From Heptranchias perlo (lineage: Eukaryota), in contig NW_027139442.1 in NCBI RefSeq assembly GCF_035084215.1, positions 2,294,001 through 2,358,000 on the forward strand: 64,000 nucleotides of DNA, in the 5' to 3' direction. The notes under the pieces were generated by a model, which did not search any database, was not told where the DNA came from, and saw nothing but the letters and a program-made list of their open reading frames with translations. The position numbers and the translations under genes are program-made. This document shows, piece by piece, positions 19,580 through 55,396 of the stretch (position 1 is its first letter; each line of letters begins with the position of its first letter).

Positions 19580-21140
19580 CTCCTTAATTAAGTGATTTCC
19601 TCACACAATCACGACCGAATTGAAAAGGGTCGAATTCAAATAAGTATGACCAACTGTAAACCAACTCAATTATCGGAGTCAGGTTAACCATACCCGCGTA
19701 AATTCATTATACTAGACTTCCACGTAACTAAATAGCTATCAGTTTTAGATGATCTAATTTATTTTATTCGGCTGGGTCACAACCCTGACTATGACCCTGC
19801 TCCAACAGCATCTCACAGAAAGAGCCCACAGGATCGCTGTTTTGGGAAATAGGGATTGTGTTGAGGCACTTTGTTGTTGCATTTTACTGCACTGCACCTG
19901 GCGTTTAGTTGTTTGTTGCTATTACTGAGTGCCTGAAGTGGGAAAAGATCCCTTCCCAGCACTGGAGTTCTTGACCATGAGGAGTAAACATTCTAATCGA
20001 TCACAAGTGATTTACGGTGTTGTTCTGGGTTCACAGTCCATTCTAATCTCTCCACCCTGTGATCGTTGTATAATATTGAAAGGTTGCCATGTTGGACCCT
20101 TCTATAGTTCCAATCCAGATTTTGTTCCAGGTTGTACAAAATTCTGTACTGTTGCTTTAATTATGGGGACAACCTTACTTTCTCCAGCCTCTGTTTCCGG
20201 TCTCATGATATAAACACTTCCGGATTCCTCCTGCTGCGAGGTCGAACAAGTGACCGAGTCGCCGTTCCTCACACTTCTCACGTCTCAACGTAGCGCCTCT
20301 TAGAAAATGGATACTGTCTCTGTTTTACTGCTGTTTGGTGAGTCGTGAAACTATTTTATACCAAAAGTACAGGATTCCTTGACTGTGGTGCAGCGGAGTG
20401 GACAGATGTAAGCGGGAGACTGGGACTGAGCCCAACGCTGTCCGATCTCCGGCAGCTCAATGGAGAGAAGCAACTCGTAGTTTGGTGTGCAGCCCTTTAG
20501 ACTGGAAAGCTACAGGAGCGGTTATTTGCTTGTGCTCAATTCTCGGTGGGTAACGGTGAGGGAGTGCAACTGGTATTAGTTTCCGGGAAAAGTGAACGGT
20601 ATAAGGCGGAGACAGAAACAGAGAGAGTGCCCTTTGTTGATCGTTAACTCGTGGCCCCGTTATAAAGTGTTGATTCGTGGATGTCCGCTGAGGACACGAT
20701 CAGGGTCCGTGCTCACACCCTCCCGAGTCAAATTGTTCGCGGACAAATAGTGTCTGAGCTCAGACATGAATAGTGTCCGCTCTGCCGAAGGGTAAAACAG
20801 ATCGGTGCCGCCCTTAACATCGTGTTCCAGGAAGTGTGCCCTCCTTCGTAAAATAAAAGTCGCAGTTTTTTTCTGATAATGCCTGATTTAAACTCATGAG
20901 GATTGAAGTTTAACATATTTTCCACTACCGCTTCTATGAAGCAAATGTTAAATTTGCAGCACAGGGCAGGAATGTACCCGATGTGGAAAAGCGCATTCGG
21001 CGCGGTGTAAAACGGGCTGCGATTCGCTATGAGCGAGTGTTACTGGAGAAGGCCAAATTCATCTGGGTTATATCGAAGTCATTCTGGGGTTTAAATTGGA
21101 CATGGACGGGGACTGAAAACAAGTCGGATCGCATCGGCTG
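19580..21140. repeat. Right arm of inverted duplication 2, containing the intact receptor promoter region and exon 1
   Basis: Reverse complement of 15783-17365. Confidence 0.9.
20307..20337 (+). CDS. Receptor exon 1, signal peptide part 1 (MDTVSVLLLF)
   Basis: AAAATGG Kozak context, hydrophobic run, phase-1 donor G/GTGAGT. Confidence 0.75.
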
Positions 21141-24100
21141 CCTGTTAGTCGCCGGCCCGATCCAGGTCCAGGAAAACTGGACGCTTCTTCAGAAGTGGCG
21201 CAGAGCTGAAGTGCATCACGGAGCGGACTCAAATAACTGATTCATTGTGTCTCCTTTTAGTGTTTTTTGGAACTGAGCGGAGCGTTTCTCAAGGTTAGTG
21301 TCGACATTTCTCTTTAAAATAATGACATCGAACAGGTGATGTTCTACACTGCTACATTATTGATTTTGATTTGATGTAAATGAAGTTGATTGCTGCAGCC
21401 GATCGTGTTGTCCTATTGGTAGCGCTAATGCAAGTCTGCATCTCAGCAGTTGTCATTGCGAAGGCAGCAGGGGAGAAGTCGGGGTTACTGACGGTTCACC
21501 CAGATCCTTTCTCTTGTGTGAATTAAACAACTGCACACATCAATCCAGGTGGGCCCGGACCAATGCGCCATTTAATAAGAACATAAGAACATAAGAAATA
21601 GGACCAGGAGTCGGCCAATCGGCCCCTCGAGCCTGCTCCGTCATTAAATAAGATCATGATTGATCTGATCCTAATCTCAAATCTAAATTCTTGTCCAATT
21701 TCCTGCCCGCTCCCTGTAACCCCTAATTCCCTTTACTTCTAGGAAACTGCCTACTTATGTTTTAAGTTTATTTAATGATGAAGCTTCCACAGCTTCCTGG
21801 GGCAGCAAATTCCACAGACCTACTACCCTCTGAGTGAAGAAGTTTCTCCTCATCTCAGTTTTGAAAGAGCAGCCCCTTATTCTAAGATTATGCCCCCTAG
21901 CTCTAGTTTCACCCATCCTTGGGAACATCCATACCGCATCCACCCGATCAAGCCCCTTCACAATCTTATATGTTTCAATAAGATCGCCTCTCATTCTTCT
22001 CAACTCCAGTGAGTAGAGTCCCAATCTACTCAACCTCTCCTCATATGTCCGCCCCCTCATCCCCGGGATTAACCAAGTGAACCTTCTTTGTACTGCCTCG
22101 AGAGCAAGTTTATCTTTTCTTAAGTATGGACACCAAAACTGTATGCAGTATTCCAGGTGCGGTCTCACCAATACCTTATACAACTGCAGCAATACCTCCC
22201 TGTTTTTATATTCTATCCCCCTAGCAATAAAAGCCAACATTCCGTTGGCCTTCTTGAACACCTGCTGCACCTGCATACTAACTTTTTGATTTTCTTGCAC
22301 TGGGATCCCCAGATCCCGTTGTACTGCAGTACTTTCCAGTTTCTCGACATTAAGATGATAACTTGCTCTCTGATTTTTCCTGCCAAAGCGCATAACCTCA
22401 CATTTTCCAATATTGTATTGCATCTGCCAAATCTCCGCCCACTCACCCAGCCTGTCTATATCCCCCTGTAGGTTTCTTGTGTCCTCCTCACTCTTCACTT
22501 TCCCTCCCATCATTGTATCATCTGCAAACTTTGATATGTTACACTCGGTCCCCTCCTCCAAATCGTTAATGTAGGTTGTAAAGAGTTGGGGACCCAGCAC
22601 CGACCCCTGCGGAACACCACTGGCTACTGGTTGCCAGTCCGAGAATGAATCATTCATCCAAACTCTCTACTTCCTGTTAGATAACCAATCCTCCACCCAT
22701 GCCAGAATATTACCCTCAACCCAGTGATTCTTTATCTTGAGCAATTATATTTGATGTGGCACCCTATCGAATGCCTTCTCGAAGTCTAAATAAACTACGT
22801 CCACTGGTTACCCTTTATCCACCCTGTACGTTATGTCCTCAAAGAACTCAAGCAAATTTGTCAGACATGACTTCCCCTTCGTAAAGCCATGCTGACTTTG
22901 ACCTATTAAATTATGTTTATCCAAATGTTCTGCTACTGTCTCCTTAATAATAGACTCCAAAATTTTACCCACCACAGATGTTAGTCTAACTGGTCTATAC
23001 TTTCCAGCCTTCTGCCTACTACCCTTTTTAAATAAGGGTGTTACATTAGCAGTTTTCCAATCTGCCGGGACCTTTGCCGAGTCCAGAGAATTTTGGAAAA
23101 TTATTACCAAAGCATCCACAATCCCGACTGCCACTTCCCTCAAGACCCTAGGATGCAAGCCATCAGGCCCAGGGGATTTATCCGCCTTGAGTCCCATTAA
23201 TTTACTGAATACCAATTCCCGAGTGATTTTAATCGTATTTAGCTCCTCCCCCCGCCAAGAGCCCCCTGTTTGTCCAGTGTTGGGATATTCTTCGTGCCCT
23301 CTACCGTAAAGACTGAAACAAAATATTTGTTTAGCATTCTTGCCATCTCCATGTTTCCCACCATTCATTTCCCTGTCTCATCCTCTGAGGGACCGAAGTT
23401 TGCCTTAGCCACCCTTTTTCTTTTTATCTAACTGTAGAAACTCTTGCTATCTGTTTTTATATTTTTTGCGAATTTATTTTCATAATCTATCTTCCCTTTC
23501 TTAACCAATCCTTTCGTTACTTTTTGCTGTCTTTTGAAGACTTACTAATCTTCTCTCCTCCCACTAAGTTTGGCTACCTTATATGTCATTGTTTTTATTC
23601 GGGTACTATCCTTATTTTTTTTACTTTGCCACGGATGGCTGTCATTTCTTTTACACCCTTTTGTTAACGTTACTTCTTTAGATCAAACCTGTATTCCGCT
23701 TTGTTAGCAAATCCCAGCATTTGGCATCAGTCATACATTGGCTGCATGAATTGAAGGATCAATCTGTCCCCACCCCAGATCGCTCTCCTGCTTCTCTGTG
23801 TTCTTTATTTTCCCCTTTTCCTCTTTGGTGCCTCCCGCTCCCACTCCAATAACCCAAAGCATCACCACTCCTCCGCCTTCCTTCTTACTTTCTATGCTCC
23901 CAGTTTGAATAACTTGAACAAGCCGCAGCCGGCCTTTGTGCCTTTCTTGGTGTTCTCTGCACTGCCTAACGAAGGCCCTGCCTCTCGCTTCATAGGAGCA
24001 GCAACCCGAATGGCCAGCGTGTCTGCTGAGGCCTCATCTCACCAGCCAACTTCCCGTCCGACTCATGGTACCATATAGCATCATAACGTTGTACTGCACA

Positions 24101-30100: not shown

Positions 30101-33100
30101 TGCTGCAGACTGGAGCAGAAATTTGCAAAGAGACATTAATAGATTAAGTGAGTGGGCAAAAACAGTGGCAGATGGAGTTCAATGTGGAAAACTGTGAGGT
30201 CATCCACTTTTGCCAACAGACTATTTTCAAAATGGCGAGAAGCTAGAAAGCAGAGAGATTTCGGGTTCAAAGTACAGAAATCAATAAAAGCTTGGTACAG
30301 AAATTAATTGAAAGGCTAATGTAATGTTGGCCTGTATCTCAAGTGGACTAGAATACAAAGCGGTGGAAGTTATGTTACAGATGTGCAGAGCTCCAGTCAG
30401 ACCACATTTAGAGTATTGTTTTTAGCTCTGGGCACTGCACCTCTGGAAGAATATATTGGCCTTGGAAGGGGTGCAACGCAGATTCACCAGAATGATACCG
30501 GGGTGAAAAGGGTAAATTATGAGGACAGATTGCATAGACTCGGCTTATAGTCCCTTGAATATAAAAGATTAAGTGGTAAATCTAATTGAGATGTTTTGAA
30601 AGATCAAATGAGTTGACCGGGTAGATGGAGAGAAGCTGGATCAATTGAAAAATTCAAAACAGAGATTGGTAGGTTTTTATCAGGTAAGCGATATGGAGCC
30701 AAGACAGGTCAATGGAGTTGAGATACAGAGCAGCTATTATCTAATTCAGTGGCGGAACAGGGTCGAGGTGGTGAATGGCCTACTTCTGTTCTAATGGGAA
30801 GACTGTATGAAATAATTGACAAGATTCGGTTTCCACCACTCACATAGATCATTAAAATAAAATCAAAAAGACAACTGCAATGCTGCTTGTCTGACTCCAG
30901 TCGGATTTTCTGTTGTAATACAAGGATGTCAGATAGATAGAATTACAGAGAAATTACAACACGGAGAAACGCTGTTAGGCCCAATAAGTTCGTGTTGGCC
31001 CACAAGAGAAGTAGACCTAATCCCATTCCTCACCTTGTTTCCACAACCCTTTTATCCTCCTTTCCTTCAACCATTTATCTAAACTATTGTTCAATGTTAA
31101 CATGGTCTCTGTGTCAATCACCAGCCTCACAACTCTCGGTTTAAAATTGTTTCTCCTGTTCACTGCACTAAATCGCTTACATTTGATCTCTATCTATATC
31201 CATTTGTTTTACATTCCCCAATCAACTCCTCCGAATTTTTAAATACAAGTAGCGCAGATGGGAGCAGTAACTTACAGACGGACAAAGAGAGATTAAATGA
31301 GTGGGCAAAGAGAGATTAAATGAGTGTTCAATGTGGACAAGTGAGGGATCATCCTCTTAGAACCCAAGAAAGATGAATTGCAGTATTTTCTAACTGGTGA
31401 GAAACTAGGAACGGTGGAAAATGGGTGTCCATTTACATAAATCAATAAAAGCTCGTAGACACATAAAAAAACAATCAAAGTGGCGAATGGAACTCTGGCC
31501 TTTATCTCAAAGGGACTGGAATACAATGGGGAGAAAGATATGCTTCATTTGTGCACAGCCTTGGCTGGACCATCTCTGGAGTACTGCATTCAGTTTTGGG
31601 CACCGAAACTCAGGAAGGATATATTGGCCTTGGAGGGGGTTCATCATAGATTCATCAGAATGATACCGAGGCTTACAGGATTAAATAATATATTGAAAGG
31701 TAGCCTTAAATTAGCTTATATTTCCTTGAGTATTGAAATTTCAGGGGTTATCCAATCGATAAAGATATTCGATACGGTAGAAAGGCAGAAACTATTTCCT
31801 CTCGTCAGGGAATCCAGAAGAATATTAAAATTAGAACTGAGACATTTAGGAGTGAACGTAGGTCGCACTTTTTCACACGAAGTCCAGTAATAACCGAGAA
31901 CTCCCTCCCCAAAAAGGCTGTGCATGCTGGGACAAATACAATTTTCAATACTGAGATGGATAGATTTTAATACTGGCTGGATTAAAGGTGAGCAAATGCG
32001 GTTGAGGTGCAGATCAGCCATGATCCAATTGCATGGCGGAGCAGGGTCGAAATGCTGAATTGCCGACTCCTGTTCCTATTTACAATGATCCAAACCCTGG
32101 ATTTTCCTCTGCTACAATGAATGCAGCTGGATTTTTGATTGGAGAGAAAGATGAGGCTCATCTAACTGATGGTTAGTTTCACTGCGCACCGACTCTTTTC
32201 AACTCAACTCTGAGTTGTGGGCTTACATTTATTATAAATACTGGTGGCAGCAAAGCATTAATAAGTATTAATATTCACCTACATAATGCGTGCAAGTCTG
32301 GCAAAGTGTAGCTTAGGTAAAATTAATCTTTAACTTTTGTTTCAGATTCTCTTGTGATTCCAAGAATTGCTCTGGACCAACATTCGGGTGTGTACCTAAA
32401 AGGAGATGCGGCCACTCTAACATGTACCAGTCTCGGGCTCCACAGCGGTAGCCCTTTCACTTTCTACAGAAACAGTGAGTTACTGACCCGCACCGATGTA
32501 GATCGACGTTGGGCCAGGCTCCGCATTGACCAGATCTCTGATGGGGACAAAGGATCGTATACTTGCCGGGACACGAAAACTGTTTCAGGAAGAGAGGTGC
32601 AATCACAGTACAGCAACTCTGTTGAAATAACTGTTACAGGTAAATGAAAAGAAAGAAAGACTTGCATTAATATATAGCGCCTTTCACGACCTCAGGATGT
32701 CCTAAAGAGCTTAGCAACCAATGACGTAATTTTAAAGTGTAGTCACTGCTGTAATGTAGGAAACGCGCCAGCTAATTTGCTCATAGGAAGATCCCACAAA
32801 AACCAATGAGATAACGGACAGATAATATGCTTTTTTCCCCCTCCTGTTGGTTGAGGGATAAATAGTGGACAGAACTCCAGGGAGAACACCACTGCTCTTC
32901 TTTGAAATCATGCCATCTTTTACGTCCACCTGAGAGTGCAGACGACGGTACCTCCGACAATGCAGCACTCACTCAGTTCAACCGGCCGTATACGTTGCAA
33001 AACTCAAGGAACTGGTTAACTTGATAATAGTTATTACATGTGCACGTTATGGTGGTGACGCCGATATTAGTAACCGCTGGCAGACACCGCCAGGCCCACC

Positions 33101-39100: not shown

Positions 39101-42100
39101 TCCGACTCGTAATTACCCGCTTTACACTGTACAAATGGGAGAGATGTAAAATGGGCTTCCGACTCGCCATCACCGCTTTACACTATAGAAATGGGGAGAG
39201 GTGTAAAATGGGCTTCCGACTCGCCATCACCAACTTTGCACTGTTCAAATGGGGAGAGATGTAAAATGGGTTTCTGACTCGCCATCTCCCGCTTTACAGC
39301 ACCGCACAAAATCAAAATCTACCCCATTCGTTCTTTTTAATTGGGTTTGCAGCTCGGCTAAATCAGCAGAAATTGCAATTTGAATTCAACACATTTTCCT
39401 TGTTTTGCTCGTATCCCAGAGTGCAATTTCAGGCCTAAACCCAGATGTTGGAAATAGATATCCCGCCGATTTTTTTTTTTACTTTCGCAATTTCGCTGAT
39501 TGCGCGAATGAAATCGTGAATTCCCCCTTGGTAGAATTTTATTCTCGATGCAAACAAATTCCTTCGACACAACGCAACCGTTATTGAGTTATCAACCTTT
39601 CACTGTACATGAAAATCCTCAGATCCATTCCTAACTGTTCTTTCCATTGATTTTACCACAGATCCGCTGATACCACCAGAGATATCTCTTGATCAATCGA
39701 CTGGGGTATATTTAGAAGGAGAGACGGTCGCTATTACCTGCACCGTGAACAAAGAATATGGCGATAAAATCTACTTTTACAGAAATAATGAACTGCTGTC
39801 CTCTCGCCAATTCTTCGCAAAGGACAACGTTGGAATATTGACGGTTACCAGTAAAAAACAAGGAGGACGGTACCAATGCAAATATGGAACCTCTGTCAAA
39901 ACAAGGTGGTTGGAATCCCAGTTCAGCAAGGCTGTGACGGTCACTATAGCACGTAAGTGAAGGGGACAGAGATTGTTAATATATCTGTTCAATACACTTG
40001 TTATTTTCAAAATTTCATATTGTTTTGATATAATAGTGTTTAATACTCACAGAGAAGGTCCTTGAGCTCAGCTCCTGACAGGATCCCTGTAACAATGGGT
40101 CCTGAACACACATCCTGACCGTTTACTGCCTCCGAAAACATTAATAGAAACAAGCATTCTCATTGACTCCTTTCTTACTATATCCAAGTGTAGGGTGATA
40201 TTTGGCTTCGGCTGTAGTGCAAACCGTGTGGTTGCGGATTGCAGCCCATATTACACTCTGCCTGATTTAACTTTCTAATTAACTCACGCTACCAGTCAAG
40301 ACCAATTTATACCCGACTAAGGCAGAATTATGTGAATTCCATCCCAGCCAAGTCTTGGGCTCAGATCACAAGGAGACAAATATTGTTATTTTGGATAACT
40401 GGTAAAGGCAAAAAAGGGGCAGCTTACAACTTAGATAGAATGATATTGAACGACATAGAATTACATAGAAAGTAAAGCATAGAGAAAGGACATTCGGCCG
40501 AAATGGGCGATGGCCTTCATTGCAAGAGGATTGTGTGCAGGAGCAGGTATGTCTTACTGCAGTTATACAGGGCCTTGGTGAGACCACATCTGGAGTATTG
40601 TGTGCAGTTTTGTTCTCCTCATCCGAGGAAGGATGTCCTTGCCATGGAGGGAGTGCAACGAAGGTTTATCAGATTGATTCCTGGAATGGCAGGACTGACG
40701 TATGAGGAGAGATTGGATCGACTAGACCGGTATTCACTCGAGTTTGGAAGAATGAGAGGTGATCTCATTGAAACATACCAAATTCTGACAGGACTAGACA
40801 GACTAGACGCAGGGAGGATGTTCCCGATGGCTGTGGATTCCAGAACCAGGGGTCACAGTCTCAGGATACGGGGTATTCCATTTAGAACAGCGATAAGGAG
40901 AAATTTCTTCACTCAGTGCGTCGCGAACCTGTGGAATTCTCTATCACAGTAGGCATTGGAGACCAATTCATTAGATGTATTCAAGAAGGAGATAAATATA
41001 CGCCTTAATGCTAAAGGGATCAAGGGATCTGGGGAAAAATTGGGAACAGGATACTGAGTTAGACAATCAGCAATGATCATTTTGAAAGGCGGAATAGGTC
41101 ATAAGGGCCGAACGGCCTGATCTTGCTCCTATTTTCTATGTTTCTATGTGTCCTATTTTCTATGTTTATGCTCCTCACGAGCCTCCCCCCAGTCTATTCA
41201 CCTAACTCTATCTGGTCCATCTTGCCTGACCCACATTCATTATGGCTGGAACATTACGATCCCGCCCTTGCAGCTGTGTCATCTCCGGGGAGAGACAAAA
41301 ACAGATGAATATTCAGGGCCGATAAGGGAAAAATACTCTAAAAAATTCCCCTTTGATCCAGTGAGGCGGTCGAAACCAGACAGGAGATCACATGGAACAA
41401 ATGGTATCTATAAAGTCACTTACCTTATATAGGTGCGATTTCTGCCCGAGTCAAGAAGCGGTCCAGCTTGCTTTATGTCGTGCAAAGAGTCAACAACCAC
41501 CTCACCAGGGGCTCACTAAACTATGGAAAAAGAACTGCCTGACATCCTATCTATTTCTACACTTGCGTAGTTTCATTTCATATCCCCAATCTGTTAAGCT
41601 GGAATAATCTATCAATAGGCACGCTATTCAGCCCTTGATTTATTTTGGAGAGGTTTATCCACAAATATGGAGTTGTGTGGTATTAACAGAACCCAATACC
41701 ATTTTAGCTTTAGCTACAGATTCTCTACATTGGTCATCAACCTTCAGTGATCTGTGTACAATGACACCTAGATACTTTTCTCTCTCAACCTATTTCAGTA
41801 TTGTTCCCTGCAAATGATGCGCTTATTCTGTGTTGGACGTACGAACGTGCAGGACATCACATTGATCTCCGTTCATAGTATCATAGTAGGTAGAGCACCG
41901 TGCATTTTATCATAGTAGGTACATCGTCCCTCTCCCGGCTCTTAGAAAGAGCTGTCCATTAATCACATTCCCTGCTCTTTCACCATCGCATATTTTTTTC
42001 TCTTCAAGTATTTAACTAATTCCATTTTGAATGTTACAATTGAATGTGCTTCCACCGCCCTTTCAGGCAGTGCATTGTAGATTTTTATAACTCGCTGTGT

Positions 42101-45100
42101 AAAACAATATTCCTCATCTCGCTCTGGCTCTTTGCCGATCACCTTAAATCTGTGTGCTCTGGTTACCGACCATCCTGCCAATAGAAGCATTTCCTCTTTA
42201 TTTACTCTAGCAAAGCCATTCATGAATTTGAAAACCTCTTTCAAATCTCCTCTTAACCTTCTCTGATCTAAGGAGAAGAACCACAGCTATTCCAATCTCT
42301 CCACATAACTGAAGTCCCTCATCCCTGGTAGCATTCTAGTAAAACTCTTCTTTACCCTCTCTTAGGCTTTGACATCCTTCCTAATGTGTGGTGCCCAGAA
42401 TTGAACATAGTACTCAAACTGAGGCCTAGCCAGTATTTTAGAAAGGTTTAGCATAATTTCCTTGTTCTTGAACTCTATGTCTCTATTAATAAAGCCCAGT
42501 ATAAACATATGCTTTTTTAGCAGCCATCTCAACTTGTCCTACCACTCTGAAAGATTTGTTAATGTGCATCCCCAGGTCTCTCCTTTCCTGCATCCCCTTT
42601 AAAATTGTACCATCTAGTTTATGTTGCCTTTCCTCATTCTTCCTCCCAAAATGTATCACTTCACACTTCTCTGCGTTAAATTTCATCTGCCATGGGTCTG
42701 CTCATTTCACCAGTCTGCCTATGACCTCCTGAAGTCTGTTACAACCCTCCAAATTGTTTACTACATTTCCTATCTTTCGTGTCTCCTGAAAATCTTAAAT
42801 TATACCCTGTTTACCCAAGTCCAGGTCATTGATATATATATCAAAAAGAGCTGTGGTCCTATTAATAAATATCATTTGTCATTGTGTGACCGAGTCCACA
42901 AGCGCATCTAAATCTCTTTTCAGTTGATTGCATTCCTGTACTGCCTTAACCATTTTACAGATTTTGTATTATTTGCAAACTTACTGACCATAATCGCAAC
43001 ACCGCTGCCCAGGTCATTAAGGAAGACCGTGAACAGTAGCGGGCATAGTAGCGATCCCTTGGAAACCAAACTTGTAACTTGCCTCCAGGAGCCAATTGCT
43101 GATCCACCGTATCAAATTCCAACTGATATGACAAGATCCTATCTTGTGAAGTAACTTCATATCAGGAGTGCTGAACAAAGGCTTTCTGAAAATCCAGATA
43201 GATAATGCGTACTGGATTTCCCTCATCCAATACCCTGGTAACATCCTCAAAAAACTCAATCAAATTTGTAAGGCACGACTTACTTTCCAGGAAGCCGTGT
43301 TGTAGATGTCTAATGGCCCCTTCTCTTTCCCAGTGATCACGAAGGACACCTCTTACGATTCCTTCTAGTATTTTCCTGATAATGGATGTCAGGCCGATGG
43401 GCCTGTTGTTCGCTGGCTCTCATTTGACCCATTTTTTGTAAACATGAACTACATGGGCTAACTTCCAATCTAAGGCAACTTTCCCTAACTTTATTGAACT
43501 ACTGAAGACAGGTTCACGGAGCTCACAGAGCGCCTGCCCCATCTCTTTAATTATCCTTCGGTGGTTATTATCCGAACCTGGAGCCCTTTTCAGGTTGGTC
43601 ACCAGTTTTACGCTCCGCTCGATTTTACCCTCCAACCATTCTAGTGGTGCATAAAATCGGGCCAAGTGCAAAATCGTCGGCCGACTGAACCCACTCTGTT
43701 TCCGCCGGGTGGTTTAAGTTAAAATTGCCCCATTTTGGTGAGTACTGATGAAATGCTGCATTCCAGAGATGAATCTTCCTGACAGCCATTGGCAGGAGAC
43801 ACCTGATGAAGTGCAACGTAAGACCTTGTTGAAGGATAAAAGCAGATTGTGTGATATTATTACACATCTATGTTCCTAATTTCCAATTTTACTCCTTACA
43901 TGCCCGAACTAGCAGACAGAACAGTTCAATGCCACAATGATGGCACATCGCCAAGATCTCAACTGCGCTGAACGTAGCGTCACAACAATAACAAAAACTT
44001 GCATTTATACACCGCCTTTAACGGAGTAATAATGTCCCGAATCGCTTCACAGGAACGTTATCAAGCAACATCCCGACTTGGACTTATATAACCGTTCCAT
44101 TATTATTGCTGGATCAATATCCTGAGACTCTCTCCCAAACAGCATTGTGGGAGTCTCCTCACTACACAGGCTGCAGCGACTCATTAAGAAGACCCACCAC
44201 TATCTTCACAAAGGCAACTCGGGATGGGCAGCGGAAACGCCCACATCGGAAACAATTATATAAAATTAATTTCGAGTCCACCAACACTTAACTCCTTTAT
44301 TTTAAGAGCGAATCACGACGGCTTAGCGGATACATTGGGGGAGATTTTGATTTTGCGCGATATTGTAAAACGGGTGAAAGCGAATCATCAATCCTGTTTT
44401 ACATCACTCCCGATTTTCATTCCCATTGCAGTCAAATCGGCCGAGATGTAAAATTGAATGCCGTCCCGTTAGCATTCATCTTACACTAACGCACAAAATC
44501 TAAATCTACTCCATTCACTGTCTCTAATCGAGTTTGCAGCTCGGCTAAATTAACAGAACAGGGGAATTCAAATCAATGCATTTTCCGTGTTCTGCTCGTA
44601 TCGCAAAGAGCAATTTCTGGGCCAAGCGCTGATTTTCGAAATAGAACCACCAGCTGATTTCTTTACTTTCGCACTTCCACTGATTGAGGAAAGGAAATCG
44701 CGAATTCCCTTTTTTTGTGGAATCTCAGAAATTATGCAAACACTTCCCTTCAACAAACCGCCATCCTTACTGAGTCACCAATGTTGAACTGTACATGAAA
44801 ATACACAGTTCCATTTCGAATTGTTATTTCCATTGATTTTACCACAGATCCGCTAACACCGCCAGAGATATCACTTGATCAACCGACTGGGGTGTATTTA
44901 GAAGGAGAAACGGTCACCATAACCTGCACTGTGGCCGGAGAATGTCGTGGTCAAATCTACATTTACAGAGATAATCAAGTGCTGTGGTCTCGTCAGCTCT
45001 TCGCAAAGGACAATACTGTAACCTTCACCGTTACCGGTCCAACCCGAGGAGGGATGTACCAATGCAAGTATGGAATCTATGCCAAAACAAGATGGTTAGA

Positions 45101-48100
45101 ATCCCAGCTTAGCGAGTCTGTGACGGTAACTATAACAGGTGAGTGAATGGGAACAAAGATTTTAGGGCAGTCTATTCAACATTCTTGGTATTTCCAGAAT
45201 TATATACTTCTTTCAATGTAACAGTGTTTATTATTGGCAGAGAGTGTTTCTGAGTTCATCCCTTGACAGGGTCTCTGTAACAATGGGTCCAGAACACACA
45301 GGCTAGCCGCCTGTGAAAGCATCAACAGAGGGAAGCAGTCACTTTGACCCCCATGTTATTGTATCCAAGTGTGGGATGAAATCCATCTTAAGTGGTAGCG
45401 CAAAACTGGTGCCAGGGTATGCAGAAGCATGTTACACTTCGCCGAATGTTCTTTTTCATTGACGCAATGTCACCGCCTAAGGCAGAATTTTGTGTCTTCA
45501 ATCTCAACCAAGTCTTGAGCTCAGTTCCCAAGAAGGGAAGGAGGGTTATTTTTAACTAACTCTCAAAGACGGCAAAGGGGGCAGGTTCGGGTCGGCCACC
45601 CGTTTTACACTTCGCCCGATTTTACCCTCCGTTAACTTTAATGGGCAGAGTGTAAAATGGCCGGCCGTTCGATCCCGTCCCATTCCCACTGGGCGGTTCC
45701 GGTTAACATGTCCCCTTTAGTTCAGTACTGAGGAAAAACTGCATCCCAGAAATGAGTCTTCCTTTCAGCCGTTGGTCCAAAATCCCTGATAAGGCACAAT
45801 GTCAACATACGCCCTCCTTAATGTGTAAATGGAGGTGATGTGATGTTATTACACATCTATGGTCATGATTTCCAATTTTATGCCTTACATATCTGAACTA
45901 GCAGGGCGAAATGTTTAATGCCACAATGACAGCACGTCGCCAGTCTTTTAGCTCCACCGACTGTAGCGTCACCTCACGAGGTACCGCCAGACTGGCTGGT
46001 CTTGACATATTACCAATTTCGCTGACAGTTAACCGAAACTGCCTGCTGAGACTTTCACCGTGATACTGCTTTGCAGAATACTTCAAATCAGTTATGCTGT
46101 AGTTTTCCATATCTCTCACTTGATTGCATTTCGGCAGCACCTCTTAAATCCGTGACTTCCACCACCGAGAAGGGCAGCAGGGGCATGGGAACACCATCAC
46201 TGCCGTTGCCTTCCAAGTCACTCACCATCCTGACTTAGACAAATATCGCCATTCCTTCATTGTTGCTGGTTCAAAATCGTGGAACACACTATCGAACAAC
46301 AGTGAGGGAGTACCTTTGCCACTCGGGCTAAAGCGGTGCAAGAAGAGGGTCGACGATCACCTTCTCAAGGGCACCTAAGGATGGGCAGTAAATGCCGACT
46401 TTTGCAGCATAACAAACACACCGAAACATGAGAATTAAAATTCTAGCCCACCAACATTTCCAAGCTTTATTTGAAATGTGACTTCCCACAGTTTAGCGTT
46501 GGCGTGTACTCTTGTTAATTGCGTTTGAGATGCTGCTATATCAGCATCAATGGGAATTGAAATCAACGCTTGTTCCGCTTGTATCACAGAGAGCAATTTC
46601 TGGGATAAAATGTGATTTTACAAATAGAAACCCCAGCTGATTTCTTTTTAGTCACGCATCCATTTCATTCCACTGATGAAGTCGCGAATTACTCTTTTGT
46701 GGAACCCCAGGCCCCGATGTAACATTTCCCTTGATCATAGCGGAATCGTTACTGTGATACCAACATTCCCGCGCACGAAAATATCAACAGGTCAATTTCT
46801 CATTGCTGGTTCTATCTATTTTACCACAGATCCAATCACACGGCCGCGGATGTCTCTTGATCAATCGATTGGGGTGTATTTGAAAGGAGGGACGGTTACC
46901 ATTACCTGCAACGTCAACAGAGAATATCGCGGTAAAATCTACTTTTACAGAAATAATCAACTGCTGACATCTCGCCAATTCTTCACCAAGGGCAACATTG
47001 GAACATTCACGGTTACCAGTTCAAACCAAGGAGGGCGGTACCAATGCAAATATAGAACCGTCGTCAAAAGAAGGCGATTCTGGTCCCCGCTGAGTGAGGC
47101 TGTGACAGTCACTATAGCAGGTGAGGGAAGGAGAGGAGAGATTGTTAATATATCTGTTCAACGCTCTTTATATTTTCAAAAAATAATCTTTGTATAAATA
47201 TCTCAGTGTTGCATGTTCAACGTCTCGGCGCTCAGCTCATGGTCTCTGTAACAAACGGACCTGAACACATAGGCTGACCGTTTACTGCCGGTGAAAGCAT
47301 TTATAGCAGTCACTGTAACACCGATGTTACGATATATCCAAGTGTAGGGTGAGAATAGTATCGTTAATAGAGACCCGCACTCACTGTAACCCCTATGCTA
47401 ATATATATCCAAGTGTAGGGTGAGATTAGTCCCATTAATAGAGACCAGCATTCACTGTCACCCCAATGTTAATCTAGATCCAAGTGTAGGGTGAGAATAG
47501 TATCGTTACTGGAGACCAGCACTCACTGTAACCTCTATGCTAATATATATCCAAGTGTAGGGTGGGATTAGTCTCATTTATAGAGATCAGCATTCACTGT
47601 AACTCCGATGTTAATTTATATCTATGTGTGCGGTGAACTTAGCCTTATACGGGAGTCGAAATTGTCCCCTATTATCCAGCATTGAAGTGACTTGAAATGA
47701 AAATTGGGCGGAGTGCAAAATTGGGCGGAGTGTAAAATTGGCTGCCGATAGTTATCGCCCATCTTACGATACCAACCAGGGCAAATTTCAGACGAAATTT
47801 GACGGCCGAAGCATTTCATGCAGATATTTAGGTAACCCCAAGTATTTTCTAACCAGAAATCAGCAGTGTAAATAGAAAGATAATCAGATAGCGGCTTTTG
47901 CTTCTTCAAAATGTGCCAAAGCATGTCACAGCCGGTGAAGTGTGGTCACTGTTGTAAACGCGGTACCCAGTTAACACGAACAGCAATGAGAGAATAATCG
48001 GTTCATTCATTTTGACCGTATTGGTTGAGGGCTAAATGTTGCCCACCGGTTCTTTCCTGTTCTGCTAAACGGGCAGGTAGTGCCTCGATTTAACGTTTAC

Positions 48101-51100
48101 TTTCACACTGCAGCCTGGCCTTCCACTACAATCAATATTCAACGTGGCTTAGGTACTAACGTCTTGGAGTTGACCTTATACCCACCGCCTTCGAACTCAG
48201 TAGCGAGAGAGATGCCAGGGGAACAGATAATATATAACTTGCTAATGCAGAGCCCATTAGATAAACCGAGTCTGTGGTAAAATTAATGGAAAGAAAAATA
48301 AGGCCAAGAGCTGTGAATTGCCACATGTCGTGGAAGGTTGGTAACTCAATACCGATTGTGTTGAAGGGAAGTGTTTGCATTGGGAACTGAGATTCTACAA
48401 AAGGGGAATTCACAATTTCATGAGCTGACTGAAACGGAAATAAGAAACAAAAGAAATCAGGGATTCCAGTCCCAAAGAAAGGATACAGCCCAAAAAATTC
48501 ACACCAGGATATGAATGGAACAAGGAAAATGCGTTTGTCCCACATTCACAATTCCGCTAATTTATCTGAGTTGCAAACGTGATTTAAAAGAGTGAAAATC
48601 TCTGCTAATCCATGGGGATTCACATTTCAGATGAATGAGTTACAGGCTTGTGGACTTGAATTTTTGATCATTCTTCAGGATGTGTGTATCGCTTGAAACG
48701 CCGGCGTTTATTGCCCATTTATAGTAGCCATTGAGAAGGTGGTGGTGAGCCTTCTTCTTGAACCATGCAGTCCATGTTGACAAGGTATTCCCGCAGTGCT
48801 GTTAGGGAGGGAGTTCGGAAGGGTGTTTGACTTGGAGGGGAACTTGGAGGTGATGGTGTTCCCATAGCGATTCGACACTTGTCTTGACTGATGGTGGAGG
48901 TCGCGAGTTAGGAAGGTGCTGCAGTCTATCCTGTCGATAGTACATACTGCAGCCACGGTGCACCAGTGATGCAGGGAGTGGATGGTTGAGGTAGTGAATG
49001 GACTGCCGATCAAGCGGTCCGCGTTGTGCTGTCGAGCTTCTTGCGTCTATTTGCAGCTGTACCCGCCCAGGCAAGTGAAGAGAATTCCATCACACTCCTG
49101 CCACCTTGTTGGTGGCAGTGTAGTCAATTTGACTCTCTGCTCAATTCTTCGAGACTGACACCATAATGGTTAATAGCCATGTGACTTTACTGAGTACAAG
49201 CAAGAATCAATACATCACAGTGTTTCAGCAGTCGTTTACAAAACACAATTGAGAATTGTATTACCCCGTTGTCCTTTGGGTAGAAGCTGCGACCTCGTTC
49301 CCTGTTCGTTCCTTCACGTACTCTCGTTCTCGTTTACCGCCTTGTACTTTCTATACTATTCCCTGCACTTAACAAAAGCCCAGACTAACAATTATACTCC
49401 AATAAACGGAACTGCGGGAACATACACCCAATCAGGTCTTTTCCAAAATACTCCCTTTAATTTACCAAATCGTCTCGACAACACGTAATTTCCAAGAAAG
49501 GATTGCGTCTTGTGCACCCTCCAGCCCCTTATCTTTAACACAATGTTCCTCAATCCCTGCAGTTGATAAATCCCTCTCTAGGCCTTTAAGGTAACTCGTT
49601 AACTTCAGCATTCCAGTAAGCCTGAAGGAGTTGGGGTGCCGTTAAGTCCCTCCCTTAGTTTGAAATGACATGGTTTTGATAATTTTTAGTGCCTGCAGCT
49701 GCAGTACGTTAATTTAAAAGCAATCTATGTTATGGTGCAGTAGTTTCAGTTAAAGCCTTGACTAATTAACCCTTTCGCGCCTGGTTCCCCATAATACCTT
49801 AACCAATATTTCCTTACAGCAGATAGGCTTTGGGGAATCAAGAGGTGAGCCACTTACTGCAGAATACCCAGCGTCGAATCTACTCTGATAATCACACCAT
49901 TTATGTGGTTGGTCCAGTTGAGTTTCCGATCAATGGCGACCTCTCAGATGTTGATGGTCGGGGATTCGGCGATGGTAATGTCATTGAATGTCAAAGGGGT
50001 GGTTAGACTTTCGCTTGTTGGAGATGGTCTTTGATTGGCACTTGTGTGGTGCGAATGTTACTTTCCACTTATCAGCCGAAGTCTGATGTTGGCCGGGTCT
50101 TGCAGCATGCGGATATGGACTTCTTCATTATCTGATGATTTGCGAATGGAGCTGAACACTGTGCAATCATTAGCGAACAGCCACACTTCTGAACTTATAA
50201 TGAAGAGAAATGTCGAGTAAACGCTGTTCCATGAACTAAAGTAGATACATAACAGGAAGTTATGATAAGAAATCGCACTTTCTGATAAATGTTTCACAGG
50301 GTACAAAATATTTAATTACGAATAGCAATGTTCAATAGGCCTTTTAAATTGTGTCTGTGATAATTCCAGTGTGAGTGGTACAATTACATATCACAAAGTG
50401 TAAGCCAGTGAAGGGAAGGATTTCAAAATACCCTCGAGATTTTAGGCCATCTTTTTCTTTCTATAATTTTCACACACACAAATCTCCAGTGAATACAAGT
50501 TGTCTGTTTTCCAATCGTGCATTTCCCTCGCCCACTGCTCTCCCTTTTCGTCTACTGTATCGTGCCTGAGATGACTGCACGGGCGCTCGGATGCTGAATA
50601 TAAAGTAAACCAAAATGCTATAAAGTTGGTTGAACCATTAATTGTTCAGCTGCACGATTGGCAGCAATGTGCGGAATCCGGTGAAATTATTCAGGACTGC
50701 TGTACCTGGTGCATTACAGTTTGGCTCACAAAAATACGTTTGCTCATTGCATTTCAATCGATTGTCACTACTTGTTCCATTCGAATTACAGACCTACCCA
50801 AACCAAATATATCAGTGGATTCTAGTATTGCTGTGAAAGGTGGAAAAGTCATCTTTAACTGCACAAATCGCCAGAAGCTTCCTTGCTCCACATTTTACTT
50901 ATACAGACATGGGGAAGCGAATTACTCGGATATCCAGTTTGCTGCTGCACGGCGAAATTATGTCACCTTCACGCTCACGAATATAGATCATGACGATGGA
51001 GGAAACTACATATGTTTGTATGAAGCAAATGGGGAGAGAAAGCTGCAAACGTCAGCTCTGAGTGACCCTGTACACATAACTGTAAGAGGTGAGTGAGATT

Positions 51101-52944
51101 GGCACGGTGACTGTATCACTTCGAATTCTATCGAATTTTACTAACATGGAATTAAGCCATCCATTCCCTCAAGCATATTCCGCCATTCAAATGGATCATG
51201 GGTGTTTTTACAGCTCACAAAATGGACATTCAGCCCATCGGATCGATGGCGGTCTTTATGCTCCACACGAGCCTCTTTCCACGTTACTTCATCTCACGCT
51301 ATAAACATGTCCTTCTTTTCCTTTCTCCTTCGTGTACTCATCTAGCTTGCCCTTAAATGCAGTTATGCTATTTGCCTCACTCACTCCATGTGGCAGCGAG
51401 ATGCGCATTCTAACCACGATCAGGGTAAAGATGTCTCTCCTGAATTCCTTATTGGGTTTATTTGTGGCTATATTGTATTTACGTCCCCGAGCTTTGGACT
51501 CCGCACAAGTACAAACTTCTTATCGACCTTATCGAACCCCTTCATAATTTTAAAACCTCCATCAGATCAGCTCTTTTCTCGAGAAAAGAGACCCGGCCTG
51601 TTCAGTCTTTCCTGATAGTTGTACCCTCTCAGTTTTGGTGACATCCTCCTAAATCTTCTTCCCACTTTCGACAGTGCTTCTATACTTTTATGTATTCTGG
51701 AGGCCAGAACTGTACACAGTATTCTAAATGTGGTCGAACCAAGGTTCTATACCAGTTTAACAAAAAAATCTGCTTTCCGATTCTATTCCGCTGGAAATAA
51801 ACCCCAGTGCTTTGTTAACTTGTGTTCATCCGACACCAGTAAAATGTGTTTATTTTCCATTTTAGGCCTGATCCAGTGTGGCGTAAAAGTGGCGTGGAAA
51901 TTATATCAAAAAGCATTGTAACGCTTATTTCATTAAATGTTCGCCATTTATCGTGTTACTGAGGAAAAAACTACAGCATAAAACGTTGAATGATTTAATT
52001 TTTCAAATTCTGATGAGAAGTTAAATTCGCTCGGTTTGTCCTGTCGTTCCTTACCAATCCGCGAACAGTCCAGGGTTGCCCCCCGGTGAAGCTGAGAAAA
52101 TAACATCCACGCTACGGTCTTTAACAAGAACTAATTTAACCTAGTCAGCAAAACACGATAAAAACAATCAAATGCTGTAATAATCGGTCAGCCTCTGTGC
52201 AGAGAACAGGTGAGTTCTGACCAAGATCCACTCCTGAAACGTCACCGCATCAATCCTCTCCGCACATGCGCAGTTTAGACCCAATGCTGATTCTCGAGTT
52301 AACAGAATTAAATTGATTAATTTCCACACTGCCGGTGTGATATTTTTACCGTGAGCTGGGAAGAATTAAAAATTCACCTGGTCCCAGGTCCACTATTATT
52401 ATCCAACGAAGGAATCAATGAATATATGAGGCTTTTAATTAATGGGCTAATGACAATTGAGCTTTGATCCGTGTCCCCGTTTCTCACCCGGATGTCGAAC
52501 CATTGCCGAGCTCATTACCGATTCCCTGATTTTGGAGCCTTGCATTAATGTGGGACATTTATAGGGGTAAAAGTGACGAGAGGAGCCACTTCCACTCAAC
52601 TGGATATTTGGCGTGCGGTATAACTGGCGGCAAAAGGGACTGCACCAGTTTCGCTTCCCCCGCCAAGTCCAATTACGCCTCCGGCGAGTGTTGGAAACAC
52701 ACCTTCATCTCAACCATTTTTTCCCCTTCAGAAATTCACTCCGCATTATGAAACATCCGCTGCCTATTATGTTCTTTGTTAAATAGCAAATTATTTATTT
52801 CGTGAATAATCTTTGGGCTAACTTGGTTCTACTTTGCCCCTTTATATCATTTAGATGAATCCGTTGCGCTGGAGGCTCGTGTTGGCTCTGCTGTGGTTCT
52901 GATGCTCATCCTTGCTCTGTTGGTTGTGTGCTTCTGGAAGAGAG
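20307..52944 (+). CDS. Spliced gene for an 8-Ig-domain type I membrane receptor, LRC-like (LILR/OSCAR/GPVI/A1BG-type domains); ~836 aa to the end of the TM exon, cytoplasmic exon unresolved
   Basis: Eleven exons with canonical AG/GT sites, all phase 1, lengths 31, 33, 294, 294, 306, 291, 291, 291, 291, 297, 90 nt; no stop in the joined frame. Confidence 0.85.
21261..21293 (+). CDS. Receptor exon 2, 33-nt signal-peptide mini-exon (VFFGTERSVSQ)
   Basis: TGTGTCTCCTTTTAG acceptor, AAG/GTTAGT donor, phase 1-1; completes a plausible signal peptide ending S-V-S. Confidence 0.7.
21576..23660 (-). mobile_element. CR1 LINE, relatively young 5'-truncated copy
   Basis: SGVPQGSVLGP, KFADDT, LVRPHLEYC, QHGFTKGKSCLTNL in ORFs 21755-22657 and 22808-23368; (CATAAGAA)n tail at 21576-21600. 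Confidence 0.96.
24070..28640 (-). mobile_element. Old CR1 LINE interrupted by + strand CR1 pieces (24310-24840, ~25820-25925, 27560-28140)
   Basis: Minus-strand RT/endonuclease relics (KSCLTNFID, NHRPVSLTSLVGK, ANFIELKRDLAKLDW) interleaved with + strand relics (SKFSDDTKLG; CR1 3' end at ~28100). Confidence 0.85.
29470..30795 (+). mobile_element. Decayed CR1 LINE
   Basis: VDKGMSLDVI...KFLHKRLLTK relic; CR1 3' end GAATGGCCTACTTCTGTTC at ~30775. Confidence 0.85.
31240..32080 (+). mobile_element. Decayed CR1 LINE 3' part
   Basis: ANGTLAFISKGLEY...LEYCIQFWAPKLRKDILALEGV. Confidence 0.88.
32346..32639 (+). CDS. Receptor Ig domain 1
   Basis: TTTCAG acceptor, GTAAAT donor; GDAATLTC...FTFYR...DKGSYTC...SNSVEITVT. 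Confidence 0.92.
32652..32975 (-). mobile_element. Deu-domain SINE (AmnSINE/SacSINE-like)
   Basis: Minus strand GAGTGCTGCATTGTCGGAGGTACCGTC...GGTGGACGTAAAAGATGGCA...TATTTATCCCTCAACCAACA, ending AGGCGCTATATA...TGCAAGTCTTTC; family from recall. Second degenerate copy ~47890-48200. Confidence 0.7.
33175..33850 (+). mobile_element. L2-like LINE 3' fragment
   Basis: TCTAGACTCGAC (SRLD), LTDLHWL..Q.FDFKIL relic, and GGCGCTAT..AAGT 3' end. Confidence 0.8.
34165..34458 (+). CDS. Receptor Ig domain 2 (duplicated type)
   Basis: TTTACCACAG acceptor, GTGAGT donor; GEAVTITC...FYFY...QGGRYQCRY...SEAVSVTIA. Confidence 0.93.
34735..35900. repeat. 49-bp intronic minisatellite, ~24 copies
   Basis: AATATTGGACCTGCAGTCCGGAATGTAGGAAGGAAAGGAATTACATTCT unit (e.g. 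35182, 35231). Confidence 0.97.
36140..36445 (+). CDS. Receptor Ig domain 3
   Basis: TTTACAG acceptor, GTAAGT donor; KPSLSL...GEVATVTC...FYLYR...EDYFCVY...SERSDTVKVTVV. Confidence 0.93.
37012..37302 (+). CDS. Receptor Ig domain 4 (duplicated type)
   Basis: TTTTACCACAG acceptor, GTAAGT donor; GETVTMTC...QGGLYQCQY...SQPSEAVWLTVA. Confidence 0.93.
38457..39326. mobile_element. Palindromic MITE-like element whose right arm is expanded into a 58-bp minisatellite (38555-39300, ~13 copies)
   Basis: Imperfect TIRs GGGGTCGATCTAGACTTTGTGCG ... CGCACAAAATCAAAATCTACCCC; 58-bp unit AAATGGGGAGAGATGTAAAATGGGCTTCCGACTCGCCATCACCCGCTTTACACTGTAC. Confidence 0.85.
39662..39952 (+). CDS. Receptor Ig domain 5 (duplicated type)
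   Basis: TTTTACCACAG acceptor, GTAAGT donor; GETVAITC...YFYR...QGGRYQCKY. Confidence 0.93.
40500..41165 (+). mobile_element. CR1 LINE 3' fragment
   Basis: LYRALVRPHLEYCVQF...RRNFFTQCVANLWNSL; (TTCTATGT)n tail. Confidence 0.93.
41875..43430 (-). mobile_element. CR1 LINE fragments
   Basis: MKFNAEKCEVIHFGRKN; EVFKFMNGF...FTQRVIKIYNALP; older RT relic 42900-43430. Confidence 0.85.
44848..45138 (+). CDS. Receptor Ig domain 6 (duplicated type)
   Basis: TTTTACCACAG acceptor, GTGAGT donor; GETVTITC...RGGMYQCKY...SESVTVTIT. Confidence 0.93.
46830..47120 (+). CDS. Receptor Ig domain 7 (duplicated type)
   Basis: TTTTACCACAG acceptor, GTGAGG donor; GGTVTITC...QGGRYQCKY...WSPLSEAVTVTIA. Confidence 0.93.
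47305..47635. repeat. 71-bp tandem repeat, ~4.5 copies, alternating A/B units
   Basis: TCCAAGTGTAGGGTG at 47337, 47408, 47479, 47550; units 1 and 3 share GAATAGTATCGTTA, units 2 and 4 share GATTAGTC. Confidence 0.9.
48670..50205 (-). mobile_element. LINE family A fragment split by a solo LTR
   Basis: IHSLHHWCTVAAVCTI (48708-49013) and LFANDCTVFSSI (50058-50306) relics; collinear with 2920-3840 on either side of the insert. Confidence 0.85.
49119..49818. mobile_element. Solo LTR, 700 bp
   Basis: Starts TGTA, ends TACA, flanked by 4-bp direct repeat GCAG (49115-49118, 49819-49822), interrupting a LINE. Confidence 0.8.
50792..51088 (+). CDS. Receptor Ig domain 8 (membrane-proximal)
   Basis: ATTACAG acceptor, GTGAGT donor; LPKPNIS...GGKVIFNC...FYLYR...DGGNYICLY...SALSDPVHITV. 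Confidence 0.93.
51200..51820 (-). mobile_element. Decayed CR1 3' fragment
   Basis: GGACATTCAGCCCATCG 3' hairpin relic; CCAGAACTGTACACAGTATTCTAAATGTGGTC (PHLEYCVQFW on the minus strand). Confidence 0.7.
52855..52944 (+). CDS. Receptor transmembrane exon (DESVALEARVGSAVVLMLILALLVVCFWKR)
   Basis: CATTTAG acceptor, GTAGGT donor, 90 nt, phase 1-1; hydrophobic helix preceded by Arg and followed by KR. Confidence 0.88.
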
Positions 52945-53129
52945 GTAGGTTAAACAATATATAATATCAGTTCATTACAAATACACGGACTGAGCTAATT
53001 ATCCTCTCTCTTCCCCACTACTAACCATCTCCTCCAACCATCTATCATTGGACTCCTAACCTCGGGCTGTAAATGTAAGGAGATCATGGACTGAAAGATG
53101 AAATGTCTAAGGACGAAGTTAACACTCGT

Positions 53130-55332: not shown

Positions 55333-55396
55333 TAGAAATGCCGGGAACCGAACTCGCGACCTCAACACATGCGCTGTACTACTGAGCTACATGCCC
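55333..55396 (-). pseudogene. tRNA-Ala-derived pseudogene with anticodon loop deleted
   Basis: Minus strand GGGCATGTAGCTCAGTAGTACAGCGCATGTGTTGAGGTCGCGAGTTCGGTTCCCGGCATTTC. Confidence 0.75.

What the first reader, a model, noticed from the sequence alone, without database searches (positions are those of the whole stretch)
20307..52944. Intact 8-Ig-domain LRC-like receptor with split leader and FcRgamma-type transmembrane arginine
Seen: 11 canonical phase-1 exons join with no stop into a signal peptide, eight C2-type Ig domains and a TM helix. The domains have F/Y (FYLYR, YFYR) in place of the C-strand Trp and end in S..S..V.VTV. Known: a signal peptide split over a short exon plus a ~36-nt mini-exon, Trp-less C2 domains and an Arg at the TM N-terminus are hallmarks of LILRA, OSCAR, GPVI, NKp46 and FCAR, which pair with FcRgamma. 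Inference: an activating innate immune receptor of the LRC lineage in a probable shark, with more Ig domains than human LILRs (2-4) or mouse PIR (6). The single-ORF track cannot show this gene.
Basis: partly seen in the sequence, partly recalled or inferred. Interest (0 to 1): 0.85.

Follow-up and report, generated by a model that had tools for sequence, protein, structure and literature searches.

The report
Tailless eight-domain shark immune receptor
This shark gene has an intact reading frame for an eight-domain cell-surface receptor resembling human LILR/KIR immune receptors, but it and 18 near-copies lack the family's signalling-tail exons, so it likely acts as a non-signalling decoy rather than the 'on-switch' first proposed.

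Summary
The gene is real. Eleven phase-1 exons give 836 stop-free codons: split leader (31+33 nt), eight C2 Ig domains, TM. A sawshark protein has the same eight domains in order. Models of D5 and D8 match LRC domains best. The 'FcRgamma-type arginine' is not supported. It is one GGT>CGT change in the family's inhibitory-type TM exon, present in 4 of 63 such exons here and 0 of 18 database proteins. It lacks NxxR, DYT and the acidic C-end. True NxxR activating TM exons lie elsewhere in this genome. This gene's 19-copy clade shows none (131 kb searched behind this copy), yet 15 copies are intact and dN/dS is about 0.45. Best reading: a tailless, likely non-signalling member of a shark paired-receptor family. 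A second clade gained a TM Arg independently while losing its last Tyr motif, so a KIR-like inhibitory-to-activating switch in progress is not excluded (about 15%). The scan reported this family before on other DNA of this genome (e1-9186913). No RNA evidence for this copy.

The parts
20307..20337 (+). Exon 1: ATG and first part of the signal peptide (31 nt, phase-1 donor gtgagt)
   Evidence: present in 19 of 19 clade copies
21261..21293 (+). Exon 2: 33-nt leader mini-exon
   Evidence: only candidate passing the filter in intron 1; catshark P0002 has the equivalent segment
29035..29250 (+). Dead ninth Ig exon (in-frame stops), homologous to the first Ig exon of tailed paralogs; ends approximate
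   Evidence: 71% DNA identity over 259 nt to L081:7547-7801; first seen
32346..32639 (+). Ig domain D1 exon
   Evidence: 77% to sawshark P0001
34165..34458 (+). Ig domain D2 exon
36140..36445 (+). Ig domain D3 exon
   Evidence: best PDB sequence hits OSCAR, LILRB1/2
37012..37302 (+). Ig domain D4 exon
39662..39952 (+). Ig domain D5 exon
   Evidence: model matches CHIR-AB1 and LILRB4 best
44848..45138 (+). Ig domain D6 exon
46830..47120 (+). Ig domain D7 exon
50792..51088 (+). Membrane-proximal Ig domain D8 exon; holds all three N-glycosylation sequons
52855..52944 (+). TM exon of the family's inhibitory (uncharged) type; phase-1 donor gtaggt
52878..52880 (+). Arg codon CGT (GGT or GGC, Gly, in 15 of 19 clade copies), just outside the best 19-residue hydrophobic window
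52945..52964 (+). Read-through past the donor to TAA; would give an 8-residue tail without Tyr and an 842-residue protein
   Evidence: use of this end is inferred
53430..53700 (+). Junction where similarity to tail-bearing paralogs stops (about 53585); shared by all 19 clade copies; AATAAA at 53502

Best explanation
This is an intact eight-Ig-domain receptor gene of a shark LILR/KIR-like paired family that keeps the inhibitory-type membrane anchor but lacks the family's cytoplasmic exons, so it likely sits on the cell surface as a non-signalling binder or decoy. Shown: exon structure, LRC-like fold of the D5 and D8 models, TM type, absence of tail exons behind this copy, one junction shared by 19 copies, purifying selection. 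Inferred: the transcript likely reads through the orphaned donor to an 8-residue tail; the protein would bind ligand (self or microbial, unknown) without recruiting phosphatases, tuning or competing with ITIM-bearing relatives or serving in adhesion; the Arg is likely a tolerated change at the outer membrane edge in a young four-copy subclade.
For: Tail-bearing paralogs have four cytoplasmic exons within about 7-10 kb of the TM, and 10 of 18 database proteins with this TM type carry ITIM-like Tyr motifs. None of 8 DNA probes hit the 131,056 bases behind this gene at E<=0.05, and 7 tail proteins gave E>=0.33, while 3 of 3 control regions were found. None of 33 first-tail-exon matches lies within 200 kb behind any of the 19 TM exons (compared by hand). 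All 19 share the post-TM junction at 91-100%. 15 of 19 copies are intact; among them 86 replacement and 74 silent changes give dN/dS 0.40-0.47, p<=4.4e-6. The Arg is in 4 of 63 TM exons and 0 of 18 proteins, and the four copies form one shallow clade (support 0.91). The best 19-residue hydrophobic window starts after the Arg. D8 groups (95/92) with sawshark, skate, catshark and basking shark proteins; the three with this TM have no Tyr motif in their modelled tails.
Against: No RNA shows that this copy is expressed or how it ends, and the TM donor is intact, so a new tail exon is possible. 4 of 19 copies are already broken despite under 3% coding divergence among the intact ones. The dN/dS count left out those 4 and ignores recombination, which is visible (the two trees disagree), so part of the signal may predate tail loss. 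The pattern search missed known divergent tail exons; long downstream stretches were read for only 2 of 19 copies (131 kb and 30 kb). Tails of other sharks come from automatic gene models. A second, independent Gly>Arg in the same exon is harder to dismiss as noise.
Confidence: 0.6

Rival explanations
1. Nascent activating receptor: after losing the ITIM tail, a subclade gained a TM Arg that recruits an ITAM adaptor (FcRgamma or CD3zeta), the route by which activating KIR arose from inhibitory KIR.
For: The order tail loss, then Arg gain is visible (19 tailless copies, 4 nested Arg copies), and all 4 Arg copies are intact. A second clade of 4 genes has an independent GGC>CGC two residues further in, at the Arg+17 spacing of activating TMs; 3 of those 4 have a 1-nt deletion removing the last Tyr motif. 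Precedent: PMC2213150 section 5. A zeta-family TM exon exists in the genome.
Against: No NxxR, DYT or acidic C-end; Arg followed by 19 apolar residues and Lys, so it probably lies outside the bilayer core. The family already has a dedicated activating TM exon (7 found, 3 with NxxR). The only clear adaptor exon found scores better as CD3zeta than as FcRgamma (46.7 vs 38.2 bits). One substitution on one short branch cannot be tested for selection.
Confidence: 0.15
2. The orphaned donor splices to a newly recruited downstream exon and gives a different tail, with or without signalling motifs.
For: Donor gtaggt is kept in 19 of 19 copies; several phase-1 acceptors with open frames lie downstream, the strongest at 57193.
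Against: The copies are too young for donor conservation to mean much; the same read-through gives similar short tails in tailed paralogs; the frame after the strongest acceptor has no Tyr in the 70 residues shown; an AATAAA lies 0.55 kb behind the TM.
Confidence: 0.13
3. The clade is a set of decaying segmental duplicates with little or no function; the tail loss was the disabling event.
For: 4 of 19 copies carry a stop or frameshift; no protein above 78% identity to any window domain among 43 retrieved, so the clade seems unannotated; some near-identical copies could be haplotype duplicates (2 nt difference to one copy).
Against: dN/dS 0.40-0.47 among intact copies, similar to 0.45 against the tailed C2 gene; all 11 exons kept in all 19 copies; orthologous lineage present in other sharks and a skate.
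Confidence: 0.12

Closest known systems
Leukocyte receptor complex paired receptors (LILRA/LILRB, PIR-A/B, chicken CHIR, LAIR1, OSCAR)
   Same: Trp-less C2 domains whose models match CHIR-AB1, LILRB4, LAIR1 and PirB best (TM-score 0.75-0.82); split leader; family has ITIM-like, activating-Arg and TM-less versions that cluster by species in the D8 tree.
   Different: Eight domains; this member has neither ITIM exons nor the NxxR TM; 24-32% identity to tetrapod LRC domains; no linkage to LRC marker genes shown.
Activating short-tailed KIR derived from inhibitory KIR (PMC2213150)
   Same: Inhibitory-type TM kept, tail lost, positive charge gained by point change.
   Different: KIR gained a Lys that pairs with DAP12 and lost the ITIM by a stop codon; here whole exons are missing, the charge is an Arg at the outer edge in only 4 of 19 copies, and no adaptor binding is shown.
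FCRL / Xenopus XFL / FCRL5
   Same: Long C2 chain and two-exon leader; FCRL5 is the top whole-chain sequence hit for the D2/D4-7 class; several shark relatives are auto-named FCRL5.
   Different: The FCRL5 score is summed over many domains; no FCRL among the 19 and 5 hits for single D8 and D3; the D5 model fits LRC domains (TM 0.78-0.79) better than FcepsilonRI-alpha (0.59-0.61).
Shark 'IGSF1-like / FCRL5-like / LILRA3-like' automatic gene models (P0001, P0003, P0004, P0011, P0027)
   Same: Same family; P0001 has the same 8-domain order and TM with Gly.
   Different: None corresponds to this 19-copy tailless clade; PMC6557307 (Discussion) holds such names misleading and IGSF1 eutherian-specific.

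Membership tests
FcRgamma-pairing activating receptors (LILRA, OSCAR, GPVI, NCR1, FCAR) | NxxR motif at the TM N-terminus (PMC6557307, PMC2413239) | tested here: not met
   Window reads L-E-A-R; N-L-I-R occurs in 3 other exons of this genome. The paper's text also says 'Asp at -2'; the window has Glu at -2, but the two tetrapod NxxR proteins fetched have Asn at -3 and no acid at -2.
FcRgamma-pairing activating receptors (LILRA, OSCAR, GPVI, NCR1, FCAR) | DYT consensus before, and acidic residue at the C-end of, the TM | tested here: not met
   No DYT; TM ends in Lys-Arg. Nine activating-type proteins have Arg + 16-17 apolar + Glu; window has Arg + 19 + Lys.
FcRgamma-pairing activating receptors (LILRA, OSCAR, GPVI, NCR1, FCAR) | Short tail without ITIM | tested here: met
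   No tail exon in 131 kb; read-through tail of 8 residues (inferred).
FcRgamma-pairing activating receptors (LILRA, OSCAR, GPVI, NCR1, FCAR) | Arg-dependent association with FcRgamma | not testable with these tools
   Needs co-expression. One zeta-like TM exon and one weak partial match found in the genome.
Inhibitory LRC receptors (LILRB, PirB) | Cytoplasmic ITIMs | tested here: not met
   Present in paralogs (20 of 23 terminal exons keep the Tyr motif), absent behind this gene.
LRC lineage | LRC-type C2 domain by sequence and fold | tested here: met
   D8 and D3 classes hit LRC members first; D5 and D8 models hit CHIR-AB1, LILRB4, LAIR1 first. D1 is uninformative; the D2/4-7 class scores FCRL5 first by sequence.
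LRC lineage | Domains group with LRC rather than FCRL in a tree | tested here: inconclusive
   The D8 tree held 3 tetrapod LRC rows, all on long branches, and no FCRL row.
LRC lineage | Linkage to LRC flanking genes (CNOT3, TTYH1, PRPF31) | tested here: inconclusive
   CNOT3-like on C43 and C1364, Tweety on C25, C26, C686, C817, PRPF31 not found; the receptors lie on other contigs (C1275, C1499, C1456, C1562, C511, C2, C34).
LRC lineage | Signal peptide split over two exons | tested here: met
   31+33 nt; not diagnostic, as FCRL-type genes share it.

The most novel reading that the evidence does not exclude
Birth of activating receptors caught in progress, twice: within a shark LILR/KIR-like cluster the inhibitory-type TM gained an Arg independently in two clades, once after loss of all tail exons (this gene) and once alongside loss of the last Tyr motif. 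This would give a shark parallel to the KIR/Ly49 switch in which the order of steps, unresolved for KIR, can be read, and natural Gly/Arg pairs with near-identical ectodomains make it directly testable.
Probability: 0.15. Interest if true: 0.75.

Novelty: new variant of a known kind. Interest (0 to 1): 0.42.

Why it matters
A 2014 survey found no C2-only LRC-like genes and no FcRgamma in sharks (PMC4016189, passages). This genome holds at least 70 such genes by TM-exon count (63 inhibitory-type, 7 activating-type; haplotype duplicates may inflate this), including NxxR versions. That points to LRC-style paired receptors before the shark-bony fish split, if the LRC link holds. This gene adds a third state, an amplified tailless clade under purifying selection, and supplies natural Gly/Arg variants for testing how little it takes to turn a brake into an accelerator. 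It also shows that a TM Arg read from a single copy can mislead.

Tried and rejected
RNA: no RNA holder of the D8-TM stretch was listed. Three runs of uncertain kind, kept as contigs, were laid on 44000-56100 at 80% likeness: no exon-exon joint of this gene among the 15 joints shown (99 more not shown). One 292-nt contig spans the D8 exon (50794-51088) with 48 differences, so it is a paralog. Synteny with three LRC markers was inconclusive. The ESM Atlas gave only generic Ig clusters for D5. The sawshark protein's C-terminal tail matched nothing convincing downstream. No activating-type TM exon in the window. ITIM-like hexamers downstream occur in all frames and repeats and were rejected as chance. 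No tRNA genes. A complex prediction of TM with adaptor was not run, since the report claims no binding. Scan look-ups by sequence, by nearby place and by words returned nothing. The TM census failed on a regex slip and was redone; one search listed two spurious L086 rows, dropped there. A paper I recall on LRC-like regions in fish (Wang, Belosevic and Stafford 2021) is not held and may already describe shark members; no supplements were read.

Full report
1. Observation. A six-frame scan found eight Ig-like frames on the + strand between 32.3 and 51.1 kb. Each has an AG acceptor and GT donor in phase 1. With exon 1 (20307-20337), a 33-nt mini-exon (21261-21293) and a TM exon (52855-52944) they give 836 codons without a stop. 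All 8 domains match Pfam Ig families; D2, D3, D6 and D8 also pass the HIDE1-type Ig cut-off. None has the C-strand Trp and the C-terminal S..S..V..T pattern is invariant. A sawshark protein (P0001) has the same eight domains in order and the same TM; a catshark protein (P0002) has the same two-part leader. Exons in this genome are identical to parts of proteins named from the sevengill shark Heptranchias perlo, so the host is likely that species.

2. The family. The window lies on contig C1275. D3 has 19 matches at 92-100% on C1275 and C1499 among 150 scored of 594 candidates. The same 19 loci carry the TM exon at 94-100% (40 scored of 68). I fetched all 19: each has the same 11 exons, 15 are intact and 4 carry a stop or frameshift. 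More distant clades with 4-7 Ig exons lie on C1275, C1499, C1456, C1562 and C2, with further matches on C511 and C34 not examined. Relatives occur in other sharks and rays with up to 10 domains.

3. The arginine. In the first 30 loci the Arg was present in 4 and Gly in 26. In the fuller census, 63 of 64 loci gave this TM exon: Arg in 4, Gly in 37, Ala in 22. It is a single GGT>CGT change, and the four copies form one shallow clade in a tree of the D8-TM segment (support 0.91). Of 43 retrieved proteins 18 have this TM type and none has Arg there (14 Gly, 3 Cys, 1 Ala). PMC6557307 (passages and Discussion) defines the FcRgamma-pairing TM by NxxR, a DYT consensus and an acidic C-end; the window has none. 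Nine of the 43 proteins have a different TM with Arg, 16-17 apolar residues and Glu; the window has Arg, 19 apolar residues and Lys. The best 19-residue hydrophobic window begins after the Arg, though 21- and 23-residue windows include it. The genome has 7 exons of the activating type, 3 with N-L-I-R. The window's TM is therefore the inhibitory-type exon with a recent substitution.

4. The missing tail. The TM exon ends in a good donor. Comparing sequence behind paralog TMs revealed a 28-nt exon and a terminal exon ending in an S/T-x-Y-x-x-V motif; database models add two middle exons and a first L/I-T-Y-A-V-L motif. Twenty-three terminal exons were found, 20 with the Tyr, and 33 first-tail exons against 0 for the reversed pattern. 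None lies within 200 kb behind a window-clade TM (my comparison of coordinates; the pattern missed some divergent copies). In 131,056 bases behind this gene, 8 DNA probes gave no hit at E<=0.05 and 7 tail proteins none better than E 0.33, whereas 3 of 3 control regions were hit. Similarity to tailed paralogs stops near 53585 and all 19 copies share the junction, so the loss likely happened once, before amplification. Read-through would give an 8-residue tail.

5. Is it alive? Among the 15 intact copies there are 86 replacement and 74 silent changes, dN/dS 0.40-0.47 (p<=4.4e-6), like 0.45 against the tailed C2 gene. The 4 broken copies were left out, and recombination is evident because the D1-D4 and D8-TM trees differ, so this is suggestive only. 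In a 28-row D8 tree the window groups (95/92) with sawshark, skate, catshark and basking shark proteins; the three with this TM have no Tyr motif in their modelled tails, and the nearest tailed gene read on C1275 has Asp in place of the last Tyr. A Tyr-poor branch may thus be old. Activating and inhibitory members cluster by species in the same tree, as paired receptors do.

6. Lineage. Single D8 and D3 and their class profiles hit LRC members first. The D2/D4-7 profile hits FCRL5 first (119 bits summed over a long chain), then PirB. D1 is uninformative. AlphaFold models of D5 (pLDDT 84) and D8 (88) match CHIR-AB1, LILRB4, PirB and LAIR1 best. Synteny was inconclusive and no tree with FCRL rows could be built. 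'LRC-like' is supported; orthology to the LRC is not shown. The split leader is shared with FCRL-type genes (PMC2413239, passages).

7. Mechanism. Most likely (0.6) a surface receptor that binds ligand without signalling, acting as decoy, tuner or adhesion molecule beside its ITIM-bearing relatives; expression, read-through and ligand are all inferred. The main rival (0.15) is a nascent activator. Activating KIR arose from inhibitory KIR by a TM charge plus ITIM loss, order unresolved (PMC2213150, abstract and section 5). Here tail loss precedes the Arg. A second clade of four genes gained GGC>CGC independently at the Arg+17 spacing, three of them with a 1-nt deletion removing the last Tyr motif; its model keeps the first Tyr motif (P0006). 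The one clear adaptor exon found looks like CD3zeta. Other rivals: a newly spliced tail (0.13) and decaying duplicates (0.12).

8. Novelty. Eight full-text searches listed no paper describing this shark family; I saw listings only, except for the five papers named here. PMC4016189 (passages) reports no C2-only LRC homologs and no FcRgamma in sharks. PMC10679719 (passages) gave the LILRA definition. A 2021 Immunogenetics paper that I recall on LRC-like regions in fish was not held and may cover sharks. Databases hold automatic models of relatives, none above 78% to any window domain. Earlier unchecked notes of this scan describe inhibitory and secreted members in this genome. Verdict: real gene, LRC-like, not a classical FcRgamma-type activator; a new tailless variant of a known kind; interest 0.42.

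Noticed in passing
window 29035-29250 (+): Dead ninth Ig exon with stops, 71% identical to the first Ig exon of tailed paralogs.
   Followed up: partly
L190-L193 and L058-L061 (G000:C1275, about 5.10, 6.85, 8.79, 9.41 Mb): Four genes with an independent Gly>Arg deeper in the TM (Arg+17) and a gtgcgt donor; three have a 1-nt deletion removing the last Tyr motif. Better candidates for a nascent activating receptor than the window's gene.
   Followed up: partly
L100-L102 (G000:C1275:1306519, 8277549, 5314663) and L096-L099: Activating-type TM exons, three with N-L-I-R and a C-terminal Glu, the tetrapod FcRgamma-pairing signature, in a shark.
   Followed up: partly
window 62905-63894 (-): Intronless 330-residue rhodopsin-family 7TM frame (Pfam 7tm_1, E 6e-20); a similar segment follows another clade copy. 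The label GPR139-like is recalled, from no call.
   Followed up: no
L074:1450-1653 (G000:C11) and L075:1489-1584 (G000:C1, -): One clear CD3zeta-like TM exon and one weak partial match; no clear separate FcRgamma exon in this search.
   Followed up: partly
L089-L090 (G000:C1562:2379444-2392050): Six divergent Ig exons of the family with no TM found by my pattern in the 40 kb fetched; probably a secreted member (compare P0033).
   Followed up: no
L093-L095 (G000:C1275:1658375-1674000): Another subfamily with a different TM and two Tyr motifs in the tail (P0007).
   Followed up: no
window 34741-35897, 38553-39298, 14424-15670, 60373-62530: Minisatellites of 49, 58, 36 and 52 bp; the first two lie in introns of the gene.
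   Followed up: no
window 44848-45138 and 50792-51088: D6 and D8 each carry a third Cys, and all three N-glycosylation sequons are in D8, leaving D1-D7 without sequons.
   Followed up: no
L194 (G000:C2:2132500-2135100) and G000:C34:33458110: Dispersed family copies on large contigs; the second C2 copy has a stop at the end of its TM exon.
   Followed up: no
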